Positions 33,095 to 49,159 of a DNA stretch of 64,000 bases are shown here, in pieces (position 1 is the stretch's first letter; every line of letters starts with the position of its first letter). Under the pieces are notes generated by a model. That model was not told the DNA's origin, did not search any database, and saw nothing but the letters and a program-made list of their open reading frames with translations. The translations under genes were made by a program, and so were the position numbers. Source of the DNA: a phage; sequence record NC_101837.1. One strand, 5' to 3'.

Positions 33095-36000
33095 TTACTT
33101 CAATTTCTCTTGCAACCCAGTAACAACCTCTGTCAATTTTTTAACCTGCTCCTCAAGGGCGGTTATTTTATCATCCTGTTCCCTGCAAACCTGGACAAGC
33201 AAGCCTGTTACAGCTGCGTAATCCACGCTGTAGAATCTTTCCTCTGTTATCAAAGGAGTTCCATCTTGATCAGGGTTTGGGATTTCCTTTCTTTGCACGA
33301 AAGAGCTAACCGCTTCCGGCAGAGCTTCAAGCACTTCTTGTGCTATAACACCTGCATAAGGCATACCGTTCTCTTTAAGAGTGTAAGTATAACCCTTCAT
33401 CTTCCGGATAGCTTCTAACGCATCAGGAATAACAGCTATGTTATCTTTCAGGTCTCTGTCAGAACTCTGATTGACAGATGTGCAATTCACAGCGCCGTTT
33501 ACAGAAAGATATCTTGATTTATCCGGCAAGGTACCGCAATGCCATACCCAATTTGATTGAGACTCGTCAAGAACCTTAAACTCTAACACGTTTGGACGAT
33601 CTCCTGTGCTGCCGTTACCCCAATAATACATATGGGCGGCATTAGCAGGCATGTTGCCACCGTTATTAGTAACATGGCTTCCAGAAATATACACCTTTAA
33701 CTCTGGGGTTGGTATTTCCCCTTCTGGGGTTGTTCCTCCATACCTGAAGCTAACACCATTACCACCTGTTTGGGTCCACGGGCCCCAAGTGAAGACCTGT
33801 TTCACCATATTCCCATAACGTGTGAATCTATCGCCATGGTAGGTAATATACTCTTGAACACACCCATTACCGTTATTGGCGTTATTTTGCAACACAATAA
33901 GTGTTCCGGCCTCATTTACGGGATAATGACGATCATATGTTGCATCATTATTTGCAGGCTGATGGTAAATACCTTCCCACAATCCGTGATAGGTGTTAAG
34001 GTCTGAAGAACCAAGACCTTGACCCCTGTGTTGCATGGCCTTATTCCAGGGATGGTGATTACCACCTTCTATAGACCTGGTGTATAAGTTACTTTGTCTG
34101 CCAGCAATCTGGAAAGCGTAGTTTCCCGAGAATCCTACAGATAACCCGCCTACAACCATGGTATCTTGTGGGCCGTTAACATTACCAGCTATTATTTTTG
34201 ACGGGTTGTTAGGCCCAAACTGGTTGTTCCAGTCTGCACCCGTGTGGCATACAAAACCGCCCGGAGCTGAGAAAGTGCCATCTTTGTTGAAGTTGTAGAA
34301 TCTATGAGCTGTGCCTACAACATCACGAACAATAACTTGAGCAGCTTCTGGAGTAGATCTGAACTCTGCCTGACCTTGGAGACCAGCACCATTACCGCAT
34401 TTAGAGGTAAACGTACCGTTAGTCAGATCACCTGTCCCATCTGATGCACACTGGAATCCTGCATTAGAGAATAACGCCTTTCTAGGACTGCCGTAGCACA
34501 AATAGTCAAGACCGTCTGCCCATAGCTCGACTTTTGGCATATTCATTTTGCTCATCACAGCATAGCGTTCAGCAGTGCCTATATAGTGCCACTGTGTGCC
34601 GCCACCAGTGTAGAACCCTGAAGTACCTTTGAAGTCAACAATAGGTCTGGTATTGGTGTTATTATCTCCAAGAATAGCAAGATTCAAATCTGCTGACTGA
34701 AGAGGTGCAACGAACTTAACCCCATCCTGATTGTCTGTTACAGCCCCAACCTGGTAATCTTGCTCTCTGGTAAACACTTCGACAACATTTCTACTTGCGT
34801 ATATGCTGACAGGGAAAGCACGAGCCTCCACATAGAAAGCAACATACTCTTGTTTACCCCTTGTTGGAGCAATCATCCCAAGAAGTGCTTTTTCATTCTG
34901 GTAGAAATTTACTACCCCGTAGAAAGAGTCTCCCCTGTCCGTCCAGCCGCCAGTTCTATAGTGACACTGCAGGGTGGCACAGTTCATAGGGTCATTTCCA
35001 GATGAAGACCTGGTGACTATAGTAATATCTGTACCTGTCGAAGGGGCGTAATACGGATCTGTTCTAACGATGATTGGGTAGTATTTCCCATCTTCCATCC
35101 CTGCGGTTCTTGGCAGTGTTAAGAAGTCTTTTACACCTGCTGCTATAGGAACTTTGAACAGATTCTGAGCATCTGCTAAAGTTGTAGCCCCAGTACCACC
35201 TGCGGCTTGAGGTAAAGGTTCCCACTTGGCCTTCCGGTTGTTATAAACACCCCATTCCAGAGTGCCGTTACCGGATTCGTCCATTCCTCCATCCCAGACC
35301 ACCATCTTGGCGGCTTTCTTGGACCCCCAAAAGCCTCTTTCTGCTCCTGAACTACGGATCCATTCTCCAAGTCCCCAGTTTGTCAGCTGACCAGTAAGAT
35401 CCCCAACCTGCATATATTTAGGGCAGTCTAATACGCCGTCTTCGCGGAAACCTAAATATCTGTGAGTTTCAGATCCTTTTGCACCTTTGTGCAGGTGGAT
35501 TGTCAACCAAGCCTTATTGTCGTTTCTTACCTCAGAATAGATCCTATATCCATGCTCAAGGACACCGTCAGCGCTGTATTTGTCCCCGTTAACAATACCC
35601 GAGGCTGACTTAACATCAGCAGAACTTTGAGACAGGTAAATGTGCCCGAAGGTAGGGGTATTTCTAGGCCCAAGACCGATGTGCGCTCTAAAGGTATCAT
35701 CGTTACGAGGTCTGACCATCGGCTGCCATGCAGTCCACTGGTTTGTGTTGGCCTGATAGGTTCTCAAATACCAAACATCTACGTTAGAGAATGGGTAGTA
35801 TTCCTGACGACAACCTGTACCGCCGTTAGCATTGTTCTGCCAAACAATCAAGTGACCAGCACCAGAACCTGCAGGGTAACCATTTGCCTCAGTTGCATAA
35901 GCAGTCATCGGCTGGTAGTATACACCATCCTGATTACCAGTCAAGTTATTGATATTGAAATTTGGCTCAAGGGCTGCACGTTGCTTATAGAAAGCCCCGA

Positions 36001-36907
36001 TATTGATACGGACTCCAGCGGCATCTCTGGCCCCTGTACCGCCTTGCTCTATAGCAAGAGGTTGCCACGAGGCTGTTTGTTGGTTCCACATACCCCAACG
36101 GCCTGTTGCGTCAAGCTGCAAGTACCCTGCCGTGTTTAAATCATCTCCAGCACGGATAACTGTTCTTGTTGGGTTGTTTGCCTCCAGGCGTTTAAATTCA
36201 TCACGAAGTGCTATTCTTTTTGTTGTTGCTACACCGTTGGTTACTGCGATGGTATACATGGCTCCGGATGTAGCGCCACGGAAAATACCATCAACAGTTG
36301 TAGTATCACGACGAGATACCACACCGTTCAGAAATTTTTCACCAGCTGCTACAGAAGGGTAGTTGGTGGTTCTTCCCTCTTCAATAACTGCAGGACCCAC
36401 AAAGTTATCAAGGTGAATAACATCACCTACAGTGTGCACCGTACCAAAATCTACACGCTGTGCAAGTGCTTTAGCATCGTTAGCTGTCTGAACAGTAACA
36501 TCCATTACATCCTGGACAGACTGCCCTTCGGCTGTCATGATCATAGATGCGCCAATGGTAGATTCCAGCTCCTCCCTTAGGGACGGGTCAGTATATACCA
36601 TCCATGCAGCGTCAGTAATCCCACCATCTGAGTACGGTGAAGATAGTGCAGGAACAGTGTGTGGAAATTCGCCTTTCCAACGCAGGTAGAGATCTTCCTC
36701 TTCGAAATAGGCAAAATCCATTGGGCCGTTTAACTTACCACCTTCCTTAAAGGAGATTACATGAGAAACAGTCCCATCCACATGGACAACATCGCCAATT
36801 TTTACACGACGGGTCAGGTCTGGTTGTTGAACAACCAGGTAATCATCCTCTGTCACTGCGGTAGTGGCAGGAAGAGATTCAATTCTGACAACTTTAATAT
36901 CAGCCAT
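33095..36907 (-). CDS. tail fibre with C-terminal self-cleaving intramolecular chaperone (peptidase S74-like) domain
   Basis: 1270 aa; C-terminal SDRDLKDNIAVIP...GVIAQEVLEALPEAV matches the S74 chaperone motif; N-terminal ~100 aa similar to 39542..40210. Confidence 0.6.
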   Translation of the reverse strand: MADIKVVRIESLPATTAVTEDDYLVVQQPDLTRRVKIGDVVHVDGTVSHVISFKEGGKLNGPMDFAYFEEEDLYLRWKGEFPHTVPALSSPYSDGGITDAAWMVYTDPSLREELESTIGASMIMTAEGQSVQDVMDVTVQTANDAKALAQRVDFGTVHTVGDVIHLDNFVGPAVIEEGRTTNYPSVAAGEKFLNGVVSRRDTTTVDGIFRGATSGAMYTIAVTNGVATTKRIALRDEFKRLEANNPTRTVIRAGDDLNTAGYLQLDATGRWGMWNQQTASWQPLAIEQGGTGARDAAGVRINIGAFYKQRAALEPNFNINNLTGNQDGVYYQPMTAYATEANGYPAGSGAGHLIVWQNNANGGTGCRQEYYPFSNVDVWYLRTYQANTNQWTAWQPMVRPRNDDTFRAHIGLGPRNTPTFGHIYLSQSSADVKSASGIVNGDKYSADGVLEHGYRIYSEVRNDNKAWLTIHLHKGAKGSETHRYLGFREDGVLDCPKYMQVGDLTGQLTNWGLGEWIRSSGAERGFWGSKKAAKMVVWDGGMDESGNGTLEWGVYNNRKAKWEPLPQAAGGTGATTLADAQNLFKVPIAAGVKDFLTLPRTAGMEDGKYYPIIVRTDPYYAPSTGTDITIVTRSSSGNDPMNCATLQCHYRTGGWTDRGDSFYGVVNFYQNEKALLGMIAPTRGKQEYVAFYVEARAFPVSIYASRNVVEVFTREQDYQVGAVTDNQDGVKFVAPLQSADLNLAILGDNNTNTRPIVDFKGTSGFYTGGGTQWHYIGTAERYAVMSKMNMPKVELWADGLDYLCYGSPRKALFSNAGFQCASDGTGDLTNGTFTSKCGNGAGLQGQAEFRSTPEAAQVIVRDVVGTAHRFYNFNKDGTFSAPGGFVCHTGADWNNQFGPNNPSKIIAGNVNGPQDTMVVGGLSVGFSGNYAFQIAGRQSNLYTRSIEGGNHHPWNKAMQHRGQGLGSSDLNTYHGLWEGIYHQPANNDATYDRHYPVNEAGTLIVLQNNANNGNGCVQEYITYHGDRFTRYGNMVKQVFTWGPWTQTGGNGVSFRYGGTTPEGEIPTPELKVYISGSHVTNNGGNMPANAAHMYYWGNGSTGDRPNVLEFKVLDESQSNWVWHCGTLPDKSRYLSVNGAVNCTSVNQSSDRDLKDNIAVIPDALEAIRKMKGYTYTLKENGMPYAGVIAQEVLEALPEAVSSFVQRKEIPNPDQDGTPLITEERFYSVDYAAVTGLLVQVCREQDDKITALEEQVKKLTEVVTGLQEKLK

Positions 36908-44011: not shown

Positions 44012-46348
44012 TTACCAAAGGTCGGTAGACATGAAGTTGATATCTTTATTGTTCTCCCACTCAAGTTTTGCATCAAATATTTTGTTAAACTCACCCTCAT
44101 CTATTGAAATCGTGATTTTCCCATCACTGATCTCTAAAGGTAGCATTTCCATAGTTCTTAATTGAGAGGCAAAACCAGGGCCACCTGGCAACGGAAGAGT
44201 CCCGCCCGGTAAGGTGTCCAAAGGATTAACAAATCCGTTACCTCCCGATATGATATCTTTGCGAATCATATCGCTGATAGTATCCAGCTGCTGATTTCTT
44301 TCACTTAGTGGGTTGTAACGGTCATTAAATAATTCCCCGGCGCTTAGTATTGTACCGATAATGCCCAGCTTACCGAGCAGACCAACTTTGCCACCAGGTG
44401 TCTTGAGGCCACCCCCACCTTTTCCTGCCGGAGCTCCACCACCAGATCCTTCTGTAGTAGCGGCACCTGCTACTCCAGCTGCACCCCTTAGAGAGCTAAG
44501 GAATTTAAAGGTTTTTACAAGCATAGATGCCATGACAAAACCTTTTGTTAGGGCGTTGACGACCAGCATGATGGCAGCAGCAAACCCTGCCCATTTAGCA
44601 TAGCTAAAGGTGTCATGAAGCTCTTCAGAATATTCCTTCGTCTTAGCTGTTATGAACCCCCATTTAATCCCCCATTCAAGGAAAAACATGCGGATCTTGA
44701 CTATAGTGTTGTTCAGTTCACCAACTACCCAGTTAAGGCCTCTCACAAACCCGCTAACAAAATCACCAGAGGCATCCCACACAAATTGCAGAGTCTCACC
44801 AGTGCGGATTAGTGTATAATAGAACTCTGTTAGTTCGTCAGACCAACGGGTGAACAGTTTCTGACGAGTCAGTTCGATAAAGGTTTTCAGTCTGTTTTCT
44901 GCCAGCACGTTAGACTTCTGCATTCTTTCATAACCAGCTGCAGATGCCTCGTTCATGTACTTAGCCACATACTTCATGATCTTGGCTGTTTTAACCTCAC
45001 CTTTCTTCATCATGTCCATGAACTGATCCATGGAGAGTTCAGAAAGACCAAAAGCCTCTTTGGTGGCCTTAATAAAAGGTTCGTATGCACCAGGCAATGC
45101 TTCAGCAAGTTGTTGCTTCAGTTCTTCGGACATTACCTGTCCTTTCCCGAGCATCTGTTGGATTGCCATAATACCGCGCTGGTATTTTACCTCATCGGCA
45201 CCATAAGCAGCAGCATACTGGGAGTATGCAGAAAACAGCTCATGCACTTCCTGATTTGTCATCTGGTTTTTGGCGTTTACCGACATCTGGGCGTAACCTT
45301 GAAGACCAGATTTGAGATCAAAACCAAGACGCATAGCCTCTTGCTGGACAAACGCAACCTCACTGTTGGCTTTGTTTGGATCTCCAGTGACAGCAGTAAG
45401 AGCAGCACTTGCCCCCTCCATCATGTGACCGGATCTGTTAACCGCAGCAAATCCAGAAAAAGCTGTATACGCAGCTGTTGCATTAATAACAGATCTACGT
45501 AAGTCTCTCATGGCATCGCCTAGTGTAAGCGTTTGGCTGGTGGCGCTTTTAAACCCAGACTGCAGCGCTGACAGGTGGGCGTTAAAGGTTGACTTCTTCA
45601 TCTCCCCGCGAGCAAACCTGGACTCTAACTCTGAGTATCCTGGCAAGCTTCCACGGAATCCGGCCCCATACTTGGCAGAAAGTCTTATCGCGGAGTTGTA
45701 GAGGTGGGTTCTCCTTGCCTCACGATCCGACATAAGCCTATTATCCATACCAGCTTTACTGTCTCTTCTTAGCTGTCTATGATAACGATTCATAGCGGCT
45801 GTCTGAGCTTTCACAAGGTTAGGGTCGGAAGCCACACCACCCATATTAGGGTTACCTGGGATATATTTGAAAGATTTGGCATTAGCCAAAACTCTTGCCT
45901 TAGGTGCCTTATAACCGCCGTAAGACACTGGTGCAGATTTGGCAGCCTTTTTGGCCTCTTTAGCTTGCTGCTGGTAGAACTTACGCATCCTAGCCATTTC
46001 TGGATTTTTAGCGGTAAGATTACCTACAGCTTGTTTACGTCTCGCATTCTCCCTACGTTCTATTGCAGCCCTTACTGCAGCCTCTTTCTTGGCCTGTGCT
46101 ACGCTCTCTCTGTGCAGTTTAGCATTTGCCTGAGATTGCTGTCTGGCAACCCGCTGCATTGTCTGCTGGGTTTTAACAGCTACCGCCTGCCATCTACTCA
46201 TGGGGTTGGCTGAGTTAAAATCCTCGCCCAGTTTCCTGAACTCCCTCCCAATACTGCGAATTTTCTCTACAGCTTTTTTGTAGGAGGAGTTCTCTATCTC
46301 AAAGCCAATCTTGTTGACTGTTGTGGCAACTATTTTGTTTGTAGCCAT
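44012..46348 (-). CDS. tail tape measure protein
   Basis: 778 aa, largely helical Ala/Lys/Gln-rich with Gly-rich C-terminal segment; preceded by chaperone pair. Confidence 0.6.
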   Translation of the reverse strand: MATNKIVATTVNKIGFEIENSSYKKAVEKIRSIGREFRKLGEDFNSANPMSRWQAVAVKTQQTMQRVARQQSQANAKLHRESVAQAKKEAAVRAAIERRENARRKQAVGNLTAKNPEMARMRKFYQQQAKEAKKAAKSAPVSYGGYKAPKARVLANAKSFKYIPGNPNMGGVASDPNLVKAQTAAMNRYHRQLRRDSKAGMDNRLMSDREARRTHLYNSAIRLSAKYGAGFRGSLPGYSELESRFARGEMKKSTFNAHLSALQSGFKSATSQTLTLGDAMRDLRRSVINATAAYTAFSGFAAVNRSGHMMEGASAALTAVTGDPNKANSEVAFVQQEAMRLGFDLKSGLQGYAQMSVNAKNQMTNQEVHELFSAYSQYAAAYGADEVKYQRGIMAIQQMLGKGQVMSEELKQQLAEALPGAYEPFIKATKEAFGLSELSMDQFMDMMKKGEVKTAKIMKYVAKYMNEASAAGYERMQKSNVLAENRLKTFIELTRQKLFTRWSDELTEFYYTLIRTGETLQFVWDASGDFVSGFVRGLNWVVGELNNTIVKIRMFFLEWGIKWGFITAKTKEYSEELHDTFSYAKWAGFAAAIMLVVNALTKGFVMASMLVKTFKFLSSLRGAAGVAGAATTEGSGGGAPAGKGGGGLKTPGGKVGLLGKLGIIGTILSAGELFNDRYNPLSERNQQLDTISDMIRKDIISGGNGFVNPLDTLPGGTLPLPGGPGFASQLRTMEMLPLEISDGKITISIDEGEFNKIFDAKLEWENNKDINFMSTDLW

Positions 46349-46402
46349 GGTTTCCTCATAATAAAAAGGGCCAGATCCCAGAAAAGGAATCCGGCCCTTA
46401 GA

Positions 46403-46768
46403 TTATCCTCTCCTGCGCTTAGCTTTCGCAGCAGCTGCGGCAGCCTTCTGCTCCCGCTCCATTTCCCTGTTTTGGACGGTATCTAGGAATTCTTCGATAT
46501 CAAGATACTCACAGAGCTTCAGGAAATACGCCATATCTGCAAGATTTAGCGATTCAAAATTTTCCCCTTTGAAATTCTTGAGCACCCTACACCAAAGAAA
46601 GTCGAACCAGTTGAGTGAACTGTTCTTGGCTGCCCACTCACTGGCCCTCACAACAACCTTGCTTATTCCTGCTCTTCCGGAGTCTGATCCAGGTTGTTCA
46701 CCTGCTGAATCATACCCATCTGCTGTAACATCTCCAGAAGGCTTCCTAAACCGTCTTGTGTGAAAAAA
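46403..46768 (-). CDS. tail assembly chaperone, -1 frameshift extension (GT-like product)
   Basis: slippery heptamer UUUUUUC (plus 46762-46768) within 46663..47136; -1 frame open from there through ORF 46403..46651. Confidence 0.45.
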   Translation of the reverse strand, partial: FFHTRRFRKPSGDVTADGYDSAGEQPGSDSGRAGISKVVVRASEWAAKNSSLNWFDFLWCRVLKNFKGENFESLNLADMAYFLKLCEYLDIEEFLDTVQNREMEREQKAAAAAAKAKRRRG

Positions 46769-47136
46769 CAGCCGTAGTTAACCTCCAGAACCTTACCTGC
46801 CAGCTTAATCATCTCCAGCAGATGCCCTGCAAACACAACATCTGGGTTAAGCTTATCCACACCATCTACGGTAATATCTTCGAACAAGATTTTAAATAAC
46901 TCTTCAATAGAGCTATCATCAAGTTCTTGGAACAGGTAAGCCAGAGCAGTAGGAAGGACCTCTGCCATATTCTGACCACCAGAGATAATAGATCCACCGA
47001 TAGCACCTAGCGGGACAGCCACAATCTTACCGATTTTAGGCATGTTTTTCATTGCTTTCATCGGTCCCCAGTGGGTGATCACAAAGTTGTGCCCTGCTAA
47101 ATCAATCTCTGTTGTAGGTCTAAAGTTTATAGCCAT
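46663..47136 (-). CDS. tail assembly chaperone (G-like)
   Basis: 157-aa acidic ORF between tube and tape measure genes. Confidence 0.45.
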   Translation of the reverse strand: MAINFRPTTEIDLAGHNFVITHWGPMKAMKNMPKIGKIVAVPLGAIGGSIISGGQNMAEVLPTALAYLFQELDDSSIEELFKILFEDITVDGVDKLNPDVVFAGHLLEMIKLAGKVLEVNYGCFFTQDGLGSLLEMLQQMGMIQQVNNLDQTPEEQE

Positions 47137-47240
47137 TTTATAGCATCCTTATTAGTCATGTTGTGCACCATATTTGTGTATTTTACCATGATTATGGTGC
47201 ATTGTCAATTTAACCTTTCAAGCAATTCAAGAACGTGTGT

Positions 47241-47280
47241 CAAAACCATAAAAGCAAAAAGCCTCACCCGAAGGTGAGGC
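47241..47280 (-). terminator. rho-independent terminator after tail tube gene
   Basis: stem GCCUCACC/GGUGAGGC with UUCG loop 47261-47280, U-tract UUUUUGCUUUU. Confidence 0.55.
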
Positions 47281-47298
47281 TTATGCTAAAGTGTGCCC

Positions 47299-47772
47299 TT
47301 AGATAATACCTGCAAGACCTGCGAGGCCAGTAAGAGCACCAGTGATGTTATCACGGTTGAGCCATGCATCCAGAATACCGATATCCCAGTCCAGCTGACC
47401 TACTTCGGTTCCGTAAGTCAGGTCAGGCTGTTTCTGGATCCAACCAATTGTGGAAATACCAGGACCCTGGCTACCTTCCAGCAGAACTGGGAAGAATACC
47501 AGACCAGTAATCGATGCCTGTTTCTGCCAGTCAGAAAGGTAAGCGTTCCATACAGAAGTGTTCTGCAAAGATACAGTCATAACACCAGATTGGTTACGAG
47601 ACAGGGCCGCAGACATTTCGCCATCCACACCAACGTGAGGGTAGATGTTGTCTTCGTTTCTTGAAACAACGATCTTGGTGTCAGCAGCGAAGCCAGTGAC
47701 ACGCTGCTGCATCAGGTACAGTTTGACCTTTTTAGGGTCATACGCATAAGGAGTTAAAATTTGAGTTTCCAT
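47299..47772 (-). CDS. tail tube protein
   Basis: 157 aa, between sheath-size gene and chaperones, followed by strong terminator. Confidence 0.45.
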   Translation of the reverse strand: METQILTPYAYDPKKVKLYLMQQRVTGFAADTKIVVSRNEDNIYPHVGVDGEMSAALSRNQSGVMTVSLQNTSVWNAYLSDWQKQASITGLVFFPVLLEGSQGPGISTIGWIQKQPDLTYGTEVGQLDWDIGILDAWLNRDNITGALTGLAGLAGII

Positions 47773-47782
47773 CTAGTCTTCC

Positions 47783-49159
47783 TTATTCAGTCATTGCAAC
47801 AGCATTGGTGGATTTAGAACCAACTTTGTCCAGAAGGACGTTGATCCGGATACGAACGAAGTGCAGGGCGTTGTTATACACCAGTTCTACTTTCACACCT
47901 TCCAGAACACGAGCAGCCAACTGATTGGTTGGGATTTCTGCACGTTTAGGAACTGTGATGATCGGGTCGTAGAATACATTATTGTCTTCGTCAAAACCTG
48001 TCAGGATCGCACCATTCTTAATGCCAGTATTGATCGGGTTGTTCATCAGAACAGACTTGATAACCGGAAGATCATCATCAGACATCTTCATGCTTAAACC
48101 CATGTTGGAGCGACGATGCATGTACCCAAACATAGATTCTTCAGATCTGAACTTGATCCAGTGTGCAAAACGAATAGCGTCTGCATACTGACCTGAAGCA
48201 CACTTACCTTCCCAGAAAGCGCCAACACCGTTAATCATTCTGTAGAAGTTAACGTGGTTTTCCCAAATAGCCATACGCTGAGTTAAAGTCAGAGACGGTG
48301 CAATCACACCTGGCATCTGTTTTAAGTGCAAGCTGTCGCCGTAAGACGGATCGTTGGATGCCATAGCACCTATGATACCACCCTCCGGGAAGTCCTTATC
48401 TGCACGAGGATCGTACATGCCGACACTGTCATATTGTGCAGCTTTCAGTTTGGTGGCGATGTTATTATCTTTACCAGTCACATCTTCTGCAGTAGAGTAG
48501 ACATGCAGCTTGTAGTTAGCCTGAGCCCACTTAGCACATGCTTCAATGTCGGTGTGGTCTTCATGGCACAGGAAGTACCAATTGTCACGCTCAGCATTGA
48601 TCTTATCAACTACTGTAGAAGGTTTTTCAGCATTGGCGATATTTTTGATTGTATAGTTACCAGTATGGTAACCAACAGTACAGTCACCAGTGATGGTGAT
48701 AACACCATCAGCAGCCTCTACAGTGATATCGTCCAAGTTATCATCTGCTTCGATTTTAGTCTTCATTGACTCTGCAATCTGAGTTGCAGCTGTTCCACCA
48801 GAGATAGGGACTATCAAAGAGGTATTGTAGCTACCTTTTGCAATAGTCATTACGACATCGGTATCAGCTGCGGCAGCAATACCTTTAAAATCTACAGTGG
48901 TCTTTTCTTTGGCCTGTCTGCCGATCATAACGTATTGTGGAGGGAATACACCACCAAAAGCTTTTGCTGCAAACTCATACGCTGCAGAGCCTTGTGCGAA
49001 ACCATCTTCCACCATCTGATCCAGCTCTGCATATACGCGAGCTCGCTCAGTAAAGTTGTTGTGGATAGCGATGAACAGGGGAGTTTCGAAACCTACAGTG
49101 TCAATAGGCTGGGTTCCGAGGTTAACTGTAACATCTACCACTTTATCTAAATATGGCAT
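47783..49159 (-). CDS. tail sheath protein
   Basis: 458 aa, directly upstream of tube gene; AAGAGGAAACA before ATG; gene order sheath-tube-chaperone-tape measure. Confidence 0.45.
   Translation of the reverse strand: MPYLDKVVDVTVNLGTQPIDTVGFETPLFIAIHNNFTERARVYAELDQMVEDGFAQGSAAYEFAAKAFGGVFPPQYVMIGRQAKEKTTVDFKGIAAAADTDVVMTIAKGSYNTSLIVPISGGTAATQIAESMKTKIEADDNLDDITVEAADGVITITGDCTVGYHTGNYTIKNIANAEKPSTVVDKINAERDNWYFLCHEDHTDIEACAKWAQANYKLHVYSTAEDVTGKDNNIATKLKAAQYDSVGMYDPRADKDFPEGGIIGAMASNDPSYGDSLHLKQMPGVIAPSLTLTQRMAIWENHVNFYRMINGVGAFWEGKCASGQYADAIRFAHWIKFRSEESMFGYMHRRSNMGLSMKMSDDDLPVIKSVLMNNPINTGIKNGAILTGFDEDNNVFYDPIITVPKRAEIPTNQLAARVLEGVKVELVYNNALHFVRIRINVLLDKVGSKSTNAVAMTE

What the first reader, a model, noticed from the sequence alone, without database searches (positions are those of the whole stretch)
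46403..47136. Probable programmed -1 ribosomal frameshift in the tail assembly chaperone
Slippery heptamer U UUU UUC occurs in frame near the 3-prime end of the 157-aa chaperone gene (codons ...TGT TTT TTC...; plus coordinates 46762-46768). The -1 frame is open from that site through the downstream 82-aa ORF, giving a ~245-aa fusion in the conserved position between tube and tape measure genes (the lambda G/GT arrangement).
Basis: partly seen in the sequence, partly recalled or inferred. Interest (0 to 1): 0.45.

Follow-up and report, generated by a model that had tools for sequence, protein, structure and literature searches.

The report
Tail chaperone frameshift in rV5-like phage
The tail assembly chaperone gene of this rV5-like E. 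coli phage almost certainly makes a second, longer protein when ribosomes slip back one base at a conserved U UUU UUC site; this is the ordinary, well-known phage trick, but public records of this phage group do not annotate it.

Summary
T TTT TTC lies in frame at 46762-46768 (- strand; codons 123-125) of a 157-aa tail assembly chaperone gene (46663-47136). The -1 frame is open from 46777 to its stop at 46403, giving a 244-aa fusion. The gene sits between the sheath/tube genes and the tape measure gene of an rV5-like Vequintavirus.

Comparative evidence is strong. About 20 distinct relatives, down to 24% chaperone identity, carry an efficient in-frame heptamer at the homologous site: T TTT TTC in most, C CCT TTT in one, G GGA AAG in one. 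In all of them the C-terminal domain lies in the -1 frame, although the linker has ten different lengths. No conserved start codon precedes that domain. Synonymous variation is suppressed at the site. The FelixO1-like phage Moogle already has an annotated joined CDS at the same site.

No downstream RNA structure is conserved. A GGAGG 13 nt upstream is a possible stimulator.

Nothing here is experimental. Transcriptional slippage on the T6 run and separate initiation at GTG 46651 are minor rivals.

Verdict: a real, ordinary lambda G/GT-type -1 frameshift, and a new, unannotated member of a known kind. Low interest apart from correcting annotations.

The parts
46663..47136 (-). Tail assembly chaperone, short form (TAC-N, frame 0, 157 aa including the 32-aa zero-frame tail after the slip site)
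46762..46768 (-). Slippery heptamer T TTT TTC (U UUU UUC), codons 123-125 (C F F)
   Evidence: It is conserved in phase in all related loci examined. U_UU.U_UU.C falls in the efficient E. coli class H_HH.U_UU.Y (PMC4066793).
46403..46762 (-). -1 frame segment of the predicted long form (119 codons plus stop). Base 46762 is read twice. The predicted product is join(complement 46762..47136, complement 46403..46762) = 244 aa.
   Evidence: The -1 peptide has a conserved RRFRKPSG stretch, a Gly/Ser/Asp/Pro-rich linker and a conserved C-terminal domain (phrog_10409, E=8.5e-51, function unknown).
46403..46651 (-). The 82-aa ORF as usually annotated (GTG start); here read as the C-terminal part of the long form
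   Evidence: The start codon is not conserved at this position in relatives. Database homologues are called with arbitrary lengths of 43-102 aa.
46782..46786 (-). GGAGG, a Shine-Dalgarno-like sequence 13 nt 5' of the heptamer; a possible upstream stimulator (inferred)
   Evidence: GGAGG or GAGGT lies 12-14 nt upstream in 11 of 18 lineages, and GGAGG lies at exactly 13 nt in Moogle. It is absent in the Certrevirus-type lineages, KpnK54, KLEP7 and Barba16S.
47180..47208 (-). Sigma-70-like promoter upstream of the chaperone gene (TTGACA-17-TAAAAT, 11 of 12 matches)
   Evidence: The same site is annotated as promoter P51 in the rV5 RefSeq record.
46366..46399 (-). Terminator-like hairpin (14 bp) plus T-run, directly after the -1 frame stop and before the tape measure gene
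   Evidence: It is annotated as a rho-independent terminator in rV5 and Murica. It recurs with different stem sequences in related genera.

Best explanation
This is a programmed -1 ribosomal frameshift of the lambda G/GT type in the tail assembly chaperone gene of an rV5-like myovirus. Most ribosomes translate frame 0 to the stop at 46663-46665 and make the 157-aa short chaperone. A minority slip back one base, with tRNA-Phe on UUU in the P site and tRNA-Phe on UUC in the A site of U UUU UUC (46768-46762); both tRNAs re-pair with UUU. These ribosomes continue in the -1 frame to 46403. The result is a 244-aa long form with three parts: the complete folded chaperone core (residues 1-125), a flexible Gly/Ser/Asp/Pro-rich linker, and a roughly 80-aa helical C-terminal domain. 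By analogy with lambda gpG/gpGT, the two forms, made at a fixed ratio from one mRNA, coat the tape measure protein and recruit the tube protein during tail assembly, and neither ends up in the virion. The anatomy of the site and its conservation are shown here. The slippage itself, its efficiency, the role of the upstream GGAGG and the assembly function are inferred.
For: (1) The heptamer is in the correct phase and the -1 frame is open for 119 codons. (2) The gene is a TAC by sequence and fold and lies between the tube and tape measure genes. (3) All 31 related loci (about 20 distinct sequences, 24-99% TAC identity) have an efficient in-frame heptamer at the homologous ...NYG(C/P/S)FF... site. 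They come from Vequintavirus, Seunavirus, Avunavirus, Certrevirus, Klebsiella phages, Stephanstirmvirinae, Aeromonas and Pseudaeromonas phages, Barbavirus, IMG/VR contigs, a gut-metagenome clade and FelixO1-like Moogle. KLEP7 has C CCT TTT and Barba16S has G GGA AAG, the lambda heptamer. (4) The codon before Phe-Phe always ends in T, whichever residue it encodes (TGT Cys, CCT Pro, AGT or TCT Ser). Codon 124 is always TTT and codon 125 always TTC, although TGT/TGC and TTT/TTC are used about equally in this phage. (5) The distance from the heptamer to the conserved C-domain motif takes ten different values (105-171 nt), all multiples of 3, so every indel kept the -1 phase. (6) No start codon is conserved at the N-edge of the C-domain. 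Several relatives (KpnK54, PBES02, F5M2A, IMGVR25) have no start codon until well inside the domain, and muut has only internal TTG codons. Database homologues are called at arbitrary lengths of 43-102 aa. (7) The -1 peptide just after the slip site (RRFRKPSG or ERFR) is conserved upstream of any start codon. (8) Synonymous codon identity peaks at 0.84 and 0.78 over codons 121-132, against a gene mean of 0.48. [quoted passage not shown] It has the same T TTT TTC and a GGAGG 13 nt upstream. (10) A conserved -1 PRF with a GTTTTT motif has been proposed for the related Vandenendeviridae and Andersonviridae (PMC12846349). (11) U_UU.U_UU.C, C_CC.U_UU.U and G_GG.A_AA.G all belong to the efficient E. 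coli heptamer classes (PMC4066793).
Against: No experimental evidence exists for this phage group. The rV5 genome/proteome paper does not mention a frameshift or a chaperone, and none of the 18 rV5-group GenBank records inspected has a joined CDS. No conserved or unusually stable downstream RNA structure was found; MFE z-scores were between -1.0 and +1.6 in 18 of 19 lineages, with PhAER-4 at -2.6, and there was no Rfam match. In this particular phage the 82-aa ORF does have a GTG with a weak AAGG 5 nt upstream, so some independent initiation cannot be excluded. A T6 run could in principle also give the same protein by transcriptional slippage. The model of the C-terminal part has low confidence (pLDDT 51), so its fold and binding partner are not established.
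Confidence: 0.85

Rival explanations
1. Transcriptional slippage. RNA polymerase adds one extra U on the T6 run, and standard translation of the U7 mRNA yields exactly the same 244-aa protein.
For: The site is a homopolymer run, and the protein product would be identical (inference). UUUUUUU and AAAAAAA runs are avoided in E. coli genes, possibly because of slippage (PMC4066793). [quoted passage not shown]
Against: By my own knowledge of the literature, six T is shorter than the runs of about 8-9 or more that give efficient slippage by bacterial RNA polymerase; this was not tested here. Two lineages replace the run with non-homopolymeric canonical ribosomal heptamers, G GGA AAG in Barba16S and C CCT TTT in KLEP7. 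The run is never lengthened to T7 although TTT and TTC are used equally. The X XXY YYZ phase and the upstream third-position T are conserved through Cys, Pro and Ser codons. The unit has a host sigma-70-type promoter.
Confidence: 0.07
2. There are two independent genes. The 82-aa ORF is translated on its own from GTG 46651 and no fusion is made; the heptamer and the open -1 frame are incidental.
For: A GTG with AAGG 5 nt upstream is present. Gene callers and annotators treat it as a separate ORF, and the Murica record even marks an RBS.
Against: The start codon is not conserved, and in several relatives more than a third of the conserved domain lies upstream of the first possible start. Called homologues have arbitrary lengths. 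The -1 phase is preserved over ten linker lengths. The -1 peptide is conserved upstream of the GTG. Synonymous change is suppressed at the heptamer.
Confidence: 0.05
3. Sequencing or assembly error in a homopolymer. The true gene would be one continuous ORF.
For: Homopolymer runs are error-prone in some sequencing chemistries (general knowledge).
Against: All 117 rV5-like GenBank records keep both the full 157-aa frame-0 product and the -1 peptide as separate frames. All three IMG/VR contigs have exactly T6. Distant relatives have the same two-frame layout. No fused protein exists among 5.8 billion database proteins, where the best coverage of the fusion is 62%.
Confidence: 0.01

Closest known systems
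Phage lambda gpG/gpGT (Levin et al. 1993; Xu, Hendrix & Duda 2004, 2013, 2014; as summarised in PMC5009743)
   Same: A chaperone gene lies between the tail shaft gene and the tape measure gene. A -1 slip on a canonical heptamer in the 3' part of the gene extends the protein with a second domain encoded in the -1 frame. No downstream structure is needed. One relative here (Barba16S) even uses lambda's G GGA AAG.
   Different: The host phage is a contractile-tailed myovirus of about 137 kb. The heptamer is U UUU UUC. The slip lies 32 codons before the frame-0 stop, so there is a 103-nt dual-coding overlap. There is no detectable sequence similarity to gpG or gpT. The unit has its own promoter and is bracketed by terminators.
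[quoted passage not shown]
   Same: The chaperone is homologous (24% identity, E=1e-6). The same T TTT TTC lies at the homologous ...NFGSFF site, with the same GGAGG 13 nt upstream and the same -1 extension. It is annotated as a joined CDS.
   Different: Moogle's chaperone is shorter (133 aa) and its C-terminal domain shows no significant similarity to the one here (best BLASTP E=0.015, over the slip-site residues only). It belongs to a different subfamily (Ounavirinae), and no terminator comparison was made.
Pakpunavirus/Vandenendeviridae and Andersonviridae TAC-N/TAC-NC with a conserved GTTTTT motif (PMC12846349, 2025)
   Same: The same kind of comparative argument is made: the -1 frame is open in all alleles, a poly-T motif is conserved, and the downstream ORF is routinely mis-annotated as hypothetical. 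The window's site CTGTTTTTTC contains GTTTTT. That paper describes these clades as related to Vequintavirinae.
   Different: That paper's frameshift analysis covers Vandenendeviridae and Andersonviridae; the passages on the frameshift that I read do not extend it to Vequintavirinae or Stephanstirmvirinae. In phAPEC8/muut-type phages the base before the run is C, not G.
E. coli dnaX -1 frameshift
   Same: An SD-like sequence at about 10-14 nt 5' of the heptamer acts as an upstream stimulator; here GGAGG lies at 13 nt.
   Different: dnaX uses A AAA AAG and also needs a strong downstream hairpin, which is absent here. The SD-like element is missing in several relatives. The stimulation is untested here, and the dnaX details come from my own knowledge.

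Membership tests
Lambda G/GT-type tail assembly chaperone with programmed -1 frameshift | Two overlapping ORFs lie immediately upstream of the tape measure gene and downstream of the major tail/tube gene | tested here: met
   Order on the - strand is sheath, tube, TAC, 82-aa ORF, TMP; the same order is seen in relatives.
Lambda G/GT-type tail assembly chaperone with programmed -1 frameshift | The upstream ORF is a tail assembly chaperone by sequence or fold | tested here: met
Lambda G/GT-type tail assembly chaperone with programmed -1 frameshift | A canonical X XXY YYZ heptamer lies in the zero frame inside the overlap, and the second ORF is in the -1 frame | tested here: met
   T TTT TTC lies at 46768-46762, and the -1 frame is open from 46777 to 46403.
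Lambda G/GT-type tail assembly chaperone with programmed -1 frameshift | The heptamer and the frame relation are conserved in diverged relatives, and the downstream ORF lacks its own conserved initiation site | tested here: met
   synonymous-site suppression is shown.
Lambda G/GT-type tail assembly chaperone with programmed -1 frameshift | The fusion protein is made at a low fixed ratio and is required for tail assembly; both forms are absent from virions | not testable with these tools
   This needs mass spectrometry or immunoblotting and genetics. The rV5 proteome paper does not mention the chaperone.
SD-stimulated -1 frameshift (dnaX/IS type) | An SD-like sequence lies 6-17 nt upstream of the heptamer (the range used in PMC4066793) | tested here: met
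   GGAGG lies 13 nt upstream. An SD-like element is present in 11 of 18 lineages and in Moogle. It is not universal, and its function is untested.
Structure-stimulated -1 frameshift (hairpin or pseudoknot 5-9 nt downstream) | A conserved stable structure lies downstream of the heptamer | tested here: not met
   MFE z-scores of the 90 nt downstream are between -1.0 and +1.6 in 18 of 19 lineages (PhAER-4 -2.6), with no shared helix. There is no Rfam hit. Pseudoknots were not searched explicitly.
Programmed transcriptional slippage | A long homopolymeric A or T run (about 8-9 or more for bacterial RNA polymerase; own knowledge), independent of reading phase | tested here: not met
   The run is T6 and is never longer in any relative. 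It is replaced by GGGAAAG and CCCTTTT in two lineages.

The most novel reading that the evidence does not exclude
The frameshift signal is a bipartite element retained since before the FelixO1-like, rV5-like and phAPEC8-like myoviruses split. It consists of U UUU UUC plus an internal Shine-Dalgarno-like GGAGG at a fixed 13-nt distance, and it works without any downstream structure. The chaperone unit, with its own promoter and a conserved terminator before the tape measure gene, would set both the short:long ratio (by translation) and the chaperone:tape-measure ratio (by transcription).
Probability: 0.3. Interest if true: 0.35.

Novelty: new member of a known kind. Interest (0 to 1): 0.22.

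Why it matters
The main value is for annotation. More than a hundred deposited rV5-like genomes, and several hundred related Vequintavirinae and Stephanstirmvirinae genomes, list the chaperone plus a 'hypothetical protein', an overlapping CTG-initiated ORF, or an empty gap. The evidence points to one gene with two products. These phages are widely used in therapy and biocontrol work against E. coli O157 and other Enterobacteriaceae, so a correct structural gene map is useful. The site also adds a well-conserved natural example of U UUU UUC with an upstream SD-like element and no downstream structure, which could serve as a test case for frameshift stimulators in E. coli. It does not change the understanding of tail assembly.

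Tried and rejected
- Downstream stimulatory structure: I folded the 90 nt after the heptamer in 19 lineages. There was no shared helix, and z-scores were near zero in 18 of them (PhAER-4 -2.6). An Rfam scan of 46300-47300 gave only a sub-threshold GcvB match, treated as noise.
- In-frame fused homologue: the 244-aa fusion searched against 5.8 billion proteins returned only chaperones of 149-159 aa. The -1 peptide returned three short ORFs. An exhaustive HMMER search returned short ORFs of 43-102 aa plus spurious hits to long repeat proteins; the one inspected (P0083) is a repeat protein unrelated to the chaperone.
- Solved-structure sequence search of the fusion: no meaningful hit.
- AF2 model of the -1 part: only 4 sequences were available, pLDDT was 51, and it predicts a disordered linker plus four helices. 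This is too poor for fold search.
- Literature search for this frameshift in rV5 or Vequintavirinae: nothing specific was found. The Vladimirov et al. 2022 paper on T4-like chaperones is not held.
- The other long -1 extensions in the window (36191 and 36332, + strand) lie in an ORF antisense to a 1270-aa gene and were dismissed.

Full report
**What the window is.** The 1-kb region 46300-47300 is 100% identical to Escherichia phages isim and nomine. It is 99.7% identical to phage rV5. 117 GenBank phage records match it over most of its length. The window therefore comes from an rV5-like Vequintavirus, a myovirus of about 137 kb. The genes here run on the - strand in this order:
- tail sheath, 47783-49159 (phrog_205)
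- tube-like virion protein, 47299-47772 (PF11681 / phrog_280)
- a 157-aa ORF, 46663-47136
- an 82-aa ORF, 46403-46651
- tape measure protein, 44012-46348 (PF20155, phrog_5255)

**Checking the observation.** The 157-aa ORF is a tail assembly chaperone (PF21822 Phage_TAC_15, E=3.3e-23; phrog_3840, E=6.5e-69).
- On the - strand the sequence reads GGC TGT TTT TTC ACA (G C F F T, codons 122-126). T TTT TTC at + coordinates 46762-46768 is therefore in the X XXY YYZ phase.
- The -1 frame has a TAA four codons before the heptamer. It is then open for 124 codons to the TAA at 46403-46405.
- A slip after TTC gives 125 + 119 = 244 residues.
- TTTTTTC is under-represented in the window, with 7 copies against 17.6 expected. 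This copy is the only one in frame in an ORF of at least 100 aa.
- Among 63 in-frame XXXYYYZ heptamers, only this one in a real gene is followed by a long -1 extension beyond the stop. The two others lie in an ORF antisense to a 1270-aa gene.

**Comparative test.** I collected the locus from GenBank phages spanning 28-55% chaperone identity:
- PVP-SE1, 4MG, a Klebsiella phage, 18-1-2, A7_1, PBES02, F5M2A and POP18
- KLEP7, phAPEC8, muut, phi1_175008, Aeromonas PhAER-4 and Rheinheimera Barba16S

I added 13 IMG/VR contigs, a clade at 74% identity on 116-141-kb contigs, one of them labelled as a human-gut metagenome, and FelixO1-like Moogle at 24% identity. Every one has an in-frame heptamer at the homologous ...NYG(C/P/S)FF... 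site, and every one has the -1 frame open from just upstream of that heptamer to the end of the downstream ORF.

- **Heptamer identity.** It is T TTT TTC in all but two lineages. KLEP7 has C CCT TTT and Barba16S has G GGA AAG, the heptamer of lambda G/GT. All three belong to the classes measured as efficient in E. coli, H_HH.U_UU.Y and V_VV.A_AA.R (PMC4066793).
- **Codon choice.** The residue before Phe-Phe changes between Cys, Pro and Ser. Its codon still always ends in T (TGT, CCT, AGT, TCT). Codons 124 and 125 are always TTT and TTC. The phage uses TGT/TGC and TTT/TTC about equally.
- **Synonymous sites.** In a codon alignment of 26 distinct chaperone genes (306 pairs below 85% nucleotide identity), synonymous codon identity is 0.84 and 0.78 for codons 121-126 and 127-132. 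The gene mean is 0.48 and the range elsewhere is 0.27-0.67.

**Is the downstream ORF expressed on its own?** In this phage a GTG at 46651 is preceded by a weak AAGG, which is why it is called as an 82-aa gene. Four lines of evidence argue against independent expression as the main route.
- In the alignment of -1 peptides, no start codon is conserved at the N-edge of the conserved C-terminal domain (ISKVV.RA..YA.KNSSL.W.D.L...). In KpnK54, PBES02, F5M2A and IMGVR25 the first ATG, GTG or TTG lies well inside the domain, and muut has only internal TTG codons.
- An exhaustive HMMER search of 1.8 billion representatives found the domain only as short ORFs of arbitrary length (43, 44, 51, 59, 60, 61, 74, 81, 84 and 102 aa). 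The 102-aa one begins MFFQERFR..., that is, right at the slip site.
- The -1 peptide immediately after the slip (RRFRKPSG, ERFRD, TRFRK) is conserved although it lies upstream of any start codon.
- The distance from the heptamer to the conserved SL.W(F/Y)D motif takes ten different values (105, 114, 144, 147, 150, 156, 159, 162, 168 and 171 nt), and all are multiples of three. Every linker indel has therefore kept the C-domain in the -1 phase of the chaperone, which free-standing genes have no reason to do.

No protein in a 5.8-billion-sequence database covers more than 62% of the fusion, so no relative has the two parts in one frame. All 117 rV5-like records keep both frames, and all three IMG/VR contigs have exactly T6. 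This rules out a homopolymer sequencing error.

**Structure.**
- An AF2 model of the short form (39-sequence alignment, mean pLDDT 68) has a confident core over residues 1-122 and low confidence from residue 123 onwards. The slip site therefore sits at the end of the folded chaperone core, and both isoforms contain the whole core.
- The -1 part modelled poorly (pLDDT 51, four sequences). It is predicted as a disordered linker of about 32 residues followed by four helices. I did not use this model further.

Upstream, GGAGG (46786-46782, within CTG GAG GTT = Leu-Glu-Val) lies 13 nt from the heptamer.
- GGAGG or GAGGT at 12-14 nt is present in 11 of 18 lineages.
- GGAGG at exactly 13 nt is present in Moogle, with different flanking codons.
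- It is missing in the Certrevirus-type lineages, the Klebsiella phage, KLEP7 and Barba16S.
- GGAGG occurs about once per kb in the coding strand here.

This fits an SD-like upstream stimulator of the dnaX/IS kind, but the motif is confounded with conserved amino acids. I rate it as possible, not shown.

**Mechanism and rivals.** The best explanation is tandem -1 slippage of the two tRNA-Phe on U UUU UUC. It would produce a minor 244-aa long form alongside the major 157-aa short form. By analogy with lambda gpG/gpGT (PMC5009743), the two forms would then act in tape-measure and tube assembly.

Transcriptional slippage on T6 would give the same protein. I consider it unlikely for four reasons:
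- the run is short;
- it is never lengthened in any relative;
- it is replaced by non-homopolymeric canonical heptamers in two lineages;
- it is phase-constrained.

Only cDNA sequencing can exclude it. Independent initiation at GTG 46651 may add a little free C-domain in this phage, but it cannot explain the conservation pattern.

**Comparison with what is known.** This is the classical chaperone frameshift (Xu et al. 2004). The homologous site is already annotated as a joined CDS in FelixO1-like Moogle (PMC4319497). A 2025 paper proposes a conserved -1 PRF with a GTTTTT motif in Vandenendeviridae and Andersonviridae, which it describes as related to Vequintavirinae (PMC12846349).

For the rV5 group I found no report. 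The rV5 genome/proteome paper does not mention it. The rV5 RefSeq record annotates a 122-aa overlapping ORF that starts at CTG at the slip site. The other records list a 'hypothetical protein' of 43-88 aa or leave a gap. None of the 18 rV5-group records inspected has a joined CDS.

**Verdict.** It is a new, unannotated member of a very well known kind. It is useful for correcting annotation but would not surprise a specialist.

Noticed in passing
window 46366-46399 (-), 47180-47208 (-), 47259-47282 (-): The chaperone gene forms its own small transcription unit. A terminator-like hairpin follows the tube gene, then comes a near-consensus sigma-70 promoter, and a 14-bp hairpin plus T-run lies directly after the -1 frame stop and before the tape measure gene. 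That last hairpin recurs with different stem sequences in Seunavirus, Avunavirus, Certrevirus, A7_1 and Aeromonas PhAER-4, but not in phAPEC8/muut. It may set the chaperone:tape-measure ratio.
   Followed up: partly
L001 3530-3898 (rV5 RefSeq NC_011041, gp050): The reference rV5 annotation gives gp050 as a 122-aa ORF overlapping the chaperone and starting at a CTG codon immediately before the slippery heptamer. This amounts to the -1 segment of the frameshift product annotated as a separate gene.
   Followed up: yes
GenBank MG065635, MG065646, MG065647, MG065652-MG065655, MG065658, MG065666, MG065676, MG065677 (hits): About 18-23 unannotated records named 'Campylobacter phage' with host Campylobacter jejuni are 99-100% identical to E. 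coli rV5-like phages over this locus. Another (MG065650) matches phAPEC8-like phages. The host labels look doubtful.
   Followed up: no
L029, L030 (ENA and Logan metagenome contigs of 116-141 kb): A clade with about 74% chaperone identity to rV5 (P0005-P0045) occurs on near-genome-length contigs; L029 is labelled as a human-gut metagenome. It has no counterpart in the GenBank phage collection, where there are no hits between 60% and 95% identity. It has GGA TCT TTT TTC (Ser instead of Cys) and keeps the heptamer.
   Followed up: partly
window 46669-46761 (-), codons 126-156 of the chaperone: The frame-0 tail after the slip site is conserved at the protein level in relatives (…DG(F/L)(G/A).L..LL…) while the -1 frame over the same bases is also conserved (RRFR.PSG). 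This makes a genuine dual-coding stretch of about 100 nt. The tail is predicted as low-confidence or disordered, and its role is unknown.
   Followed up: partly
window 36003-36362 (+): A 119-aa TTG-initiated ORF has two in-frame XXXYYYZ heptamers and long -1 extensions, but it lies antisense to the 1270-aa gene 33095-36907 (-). It is judged spurious.
   Followed up: yes
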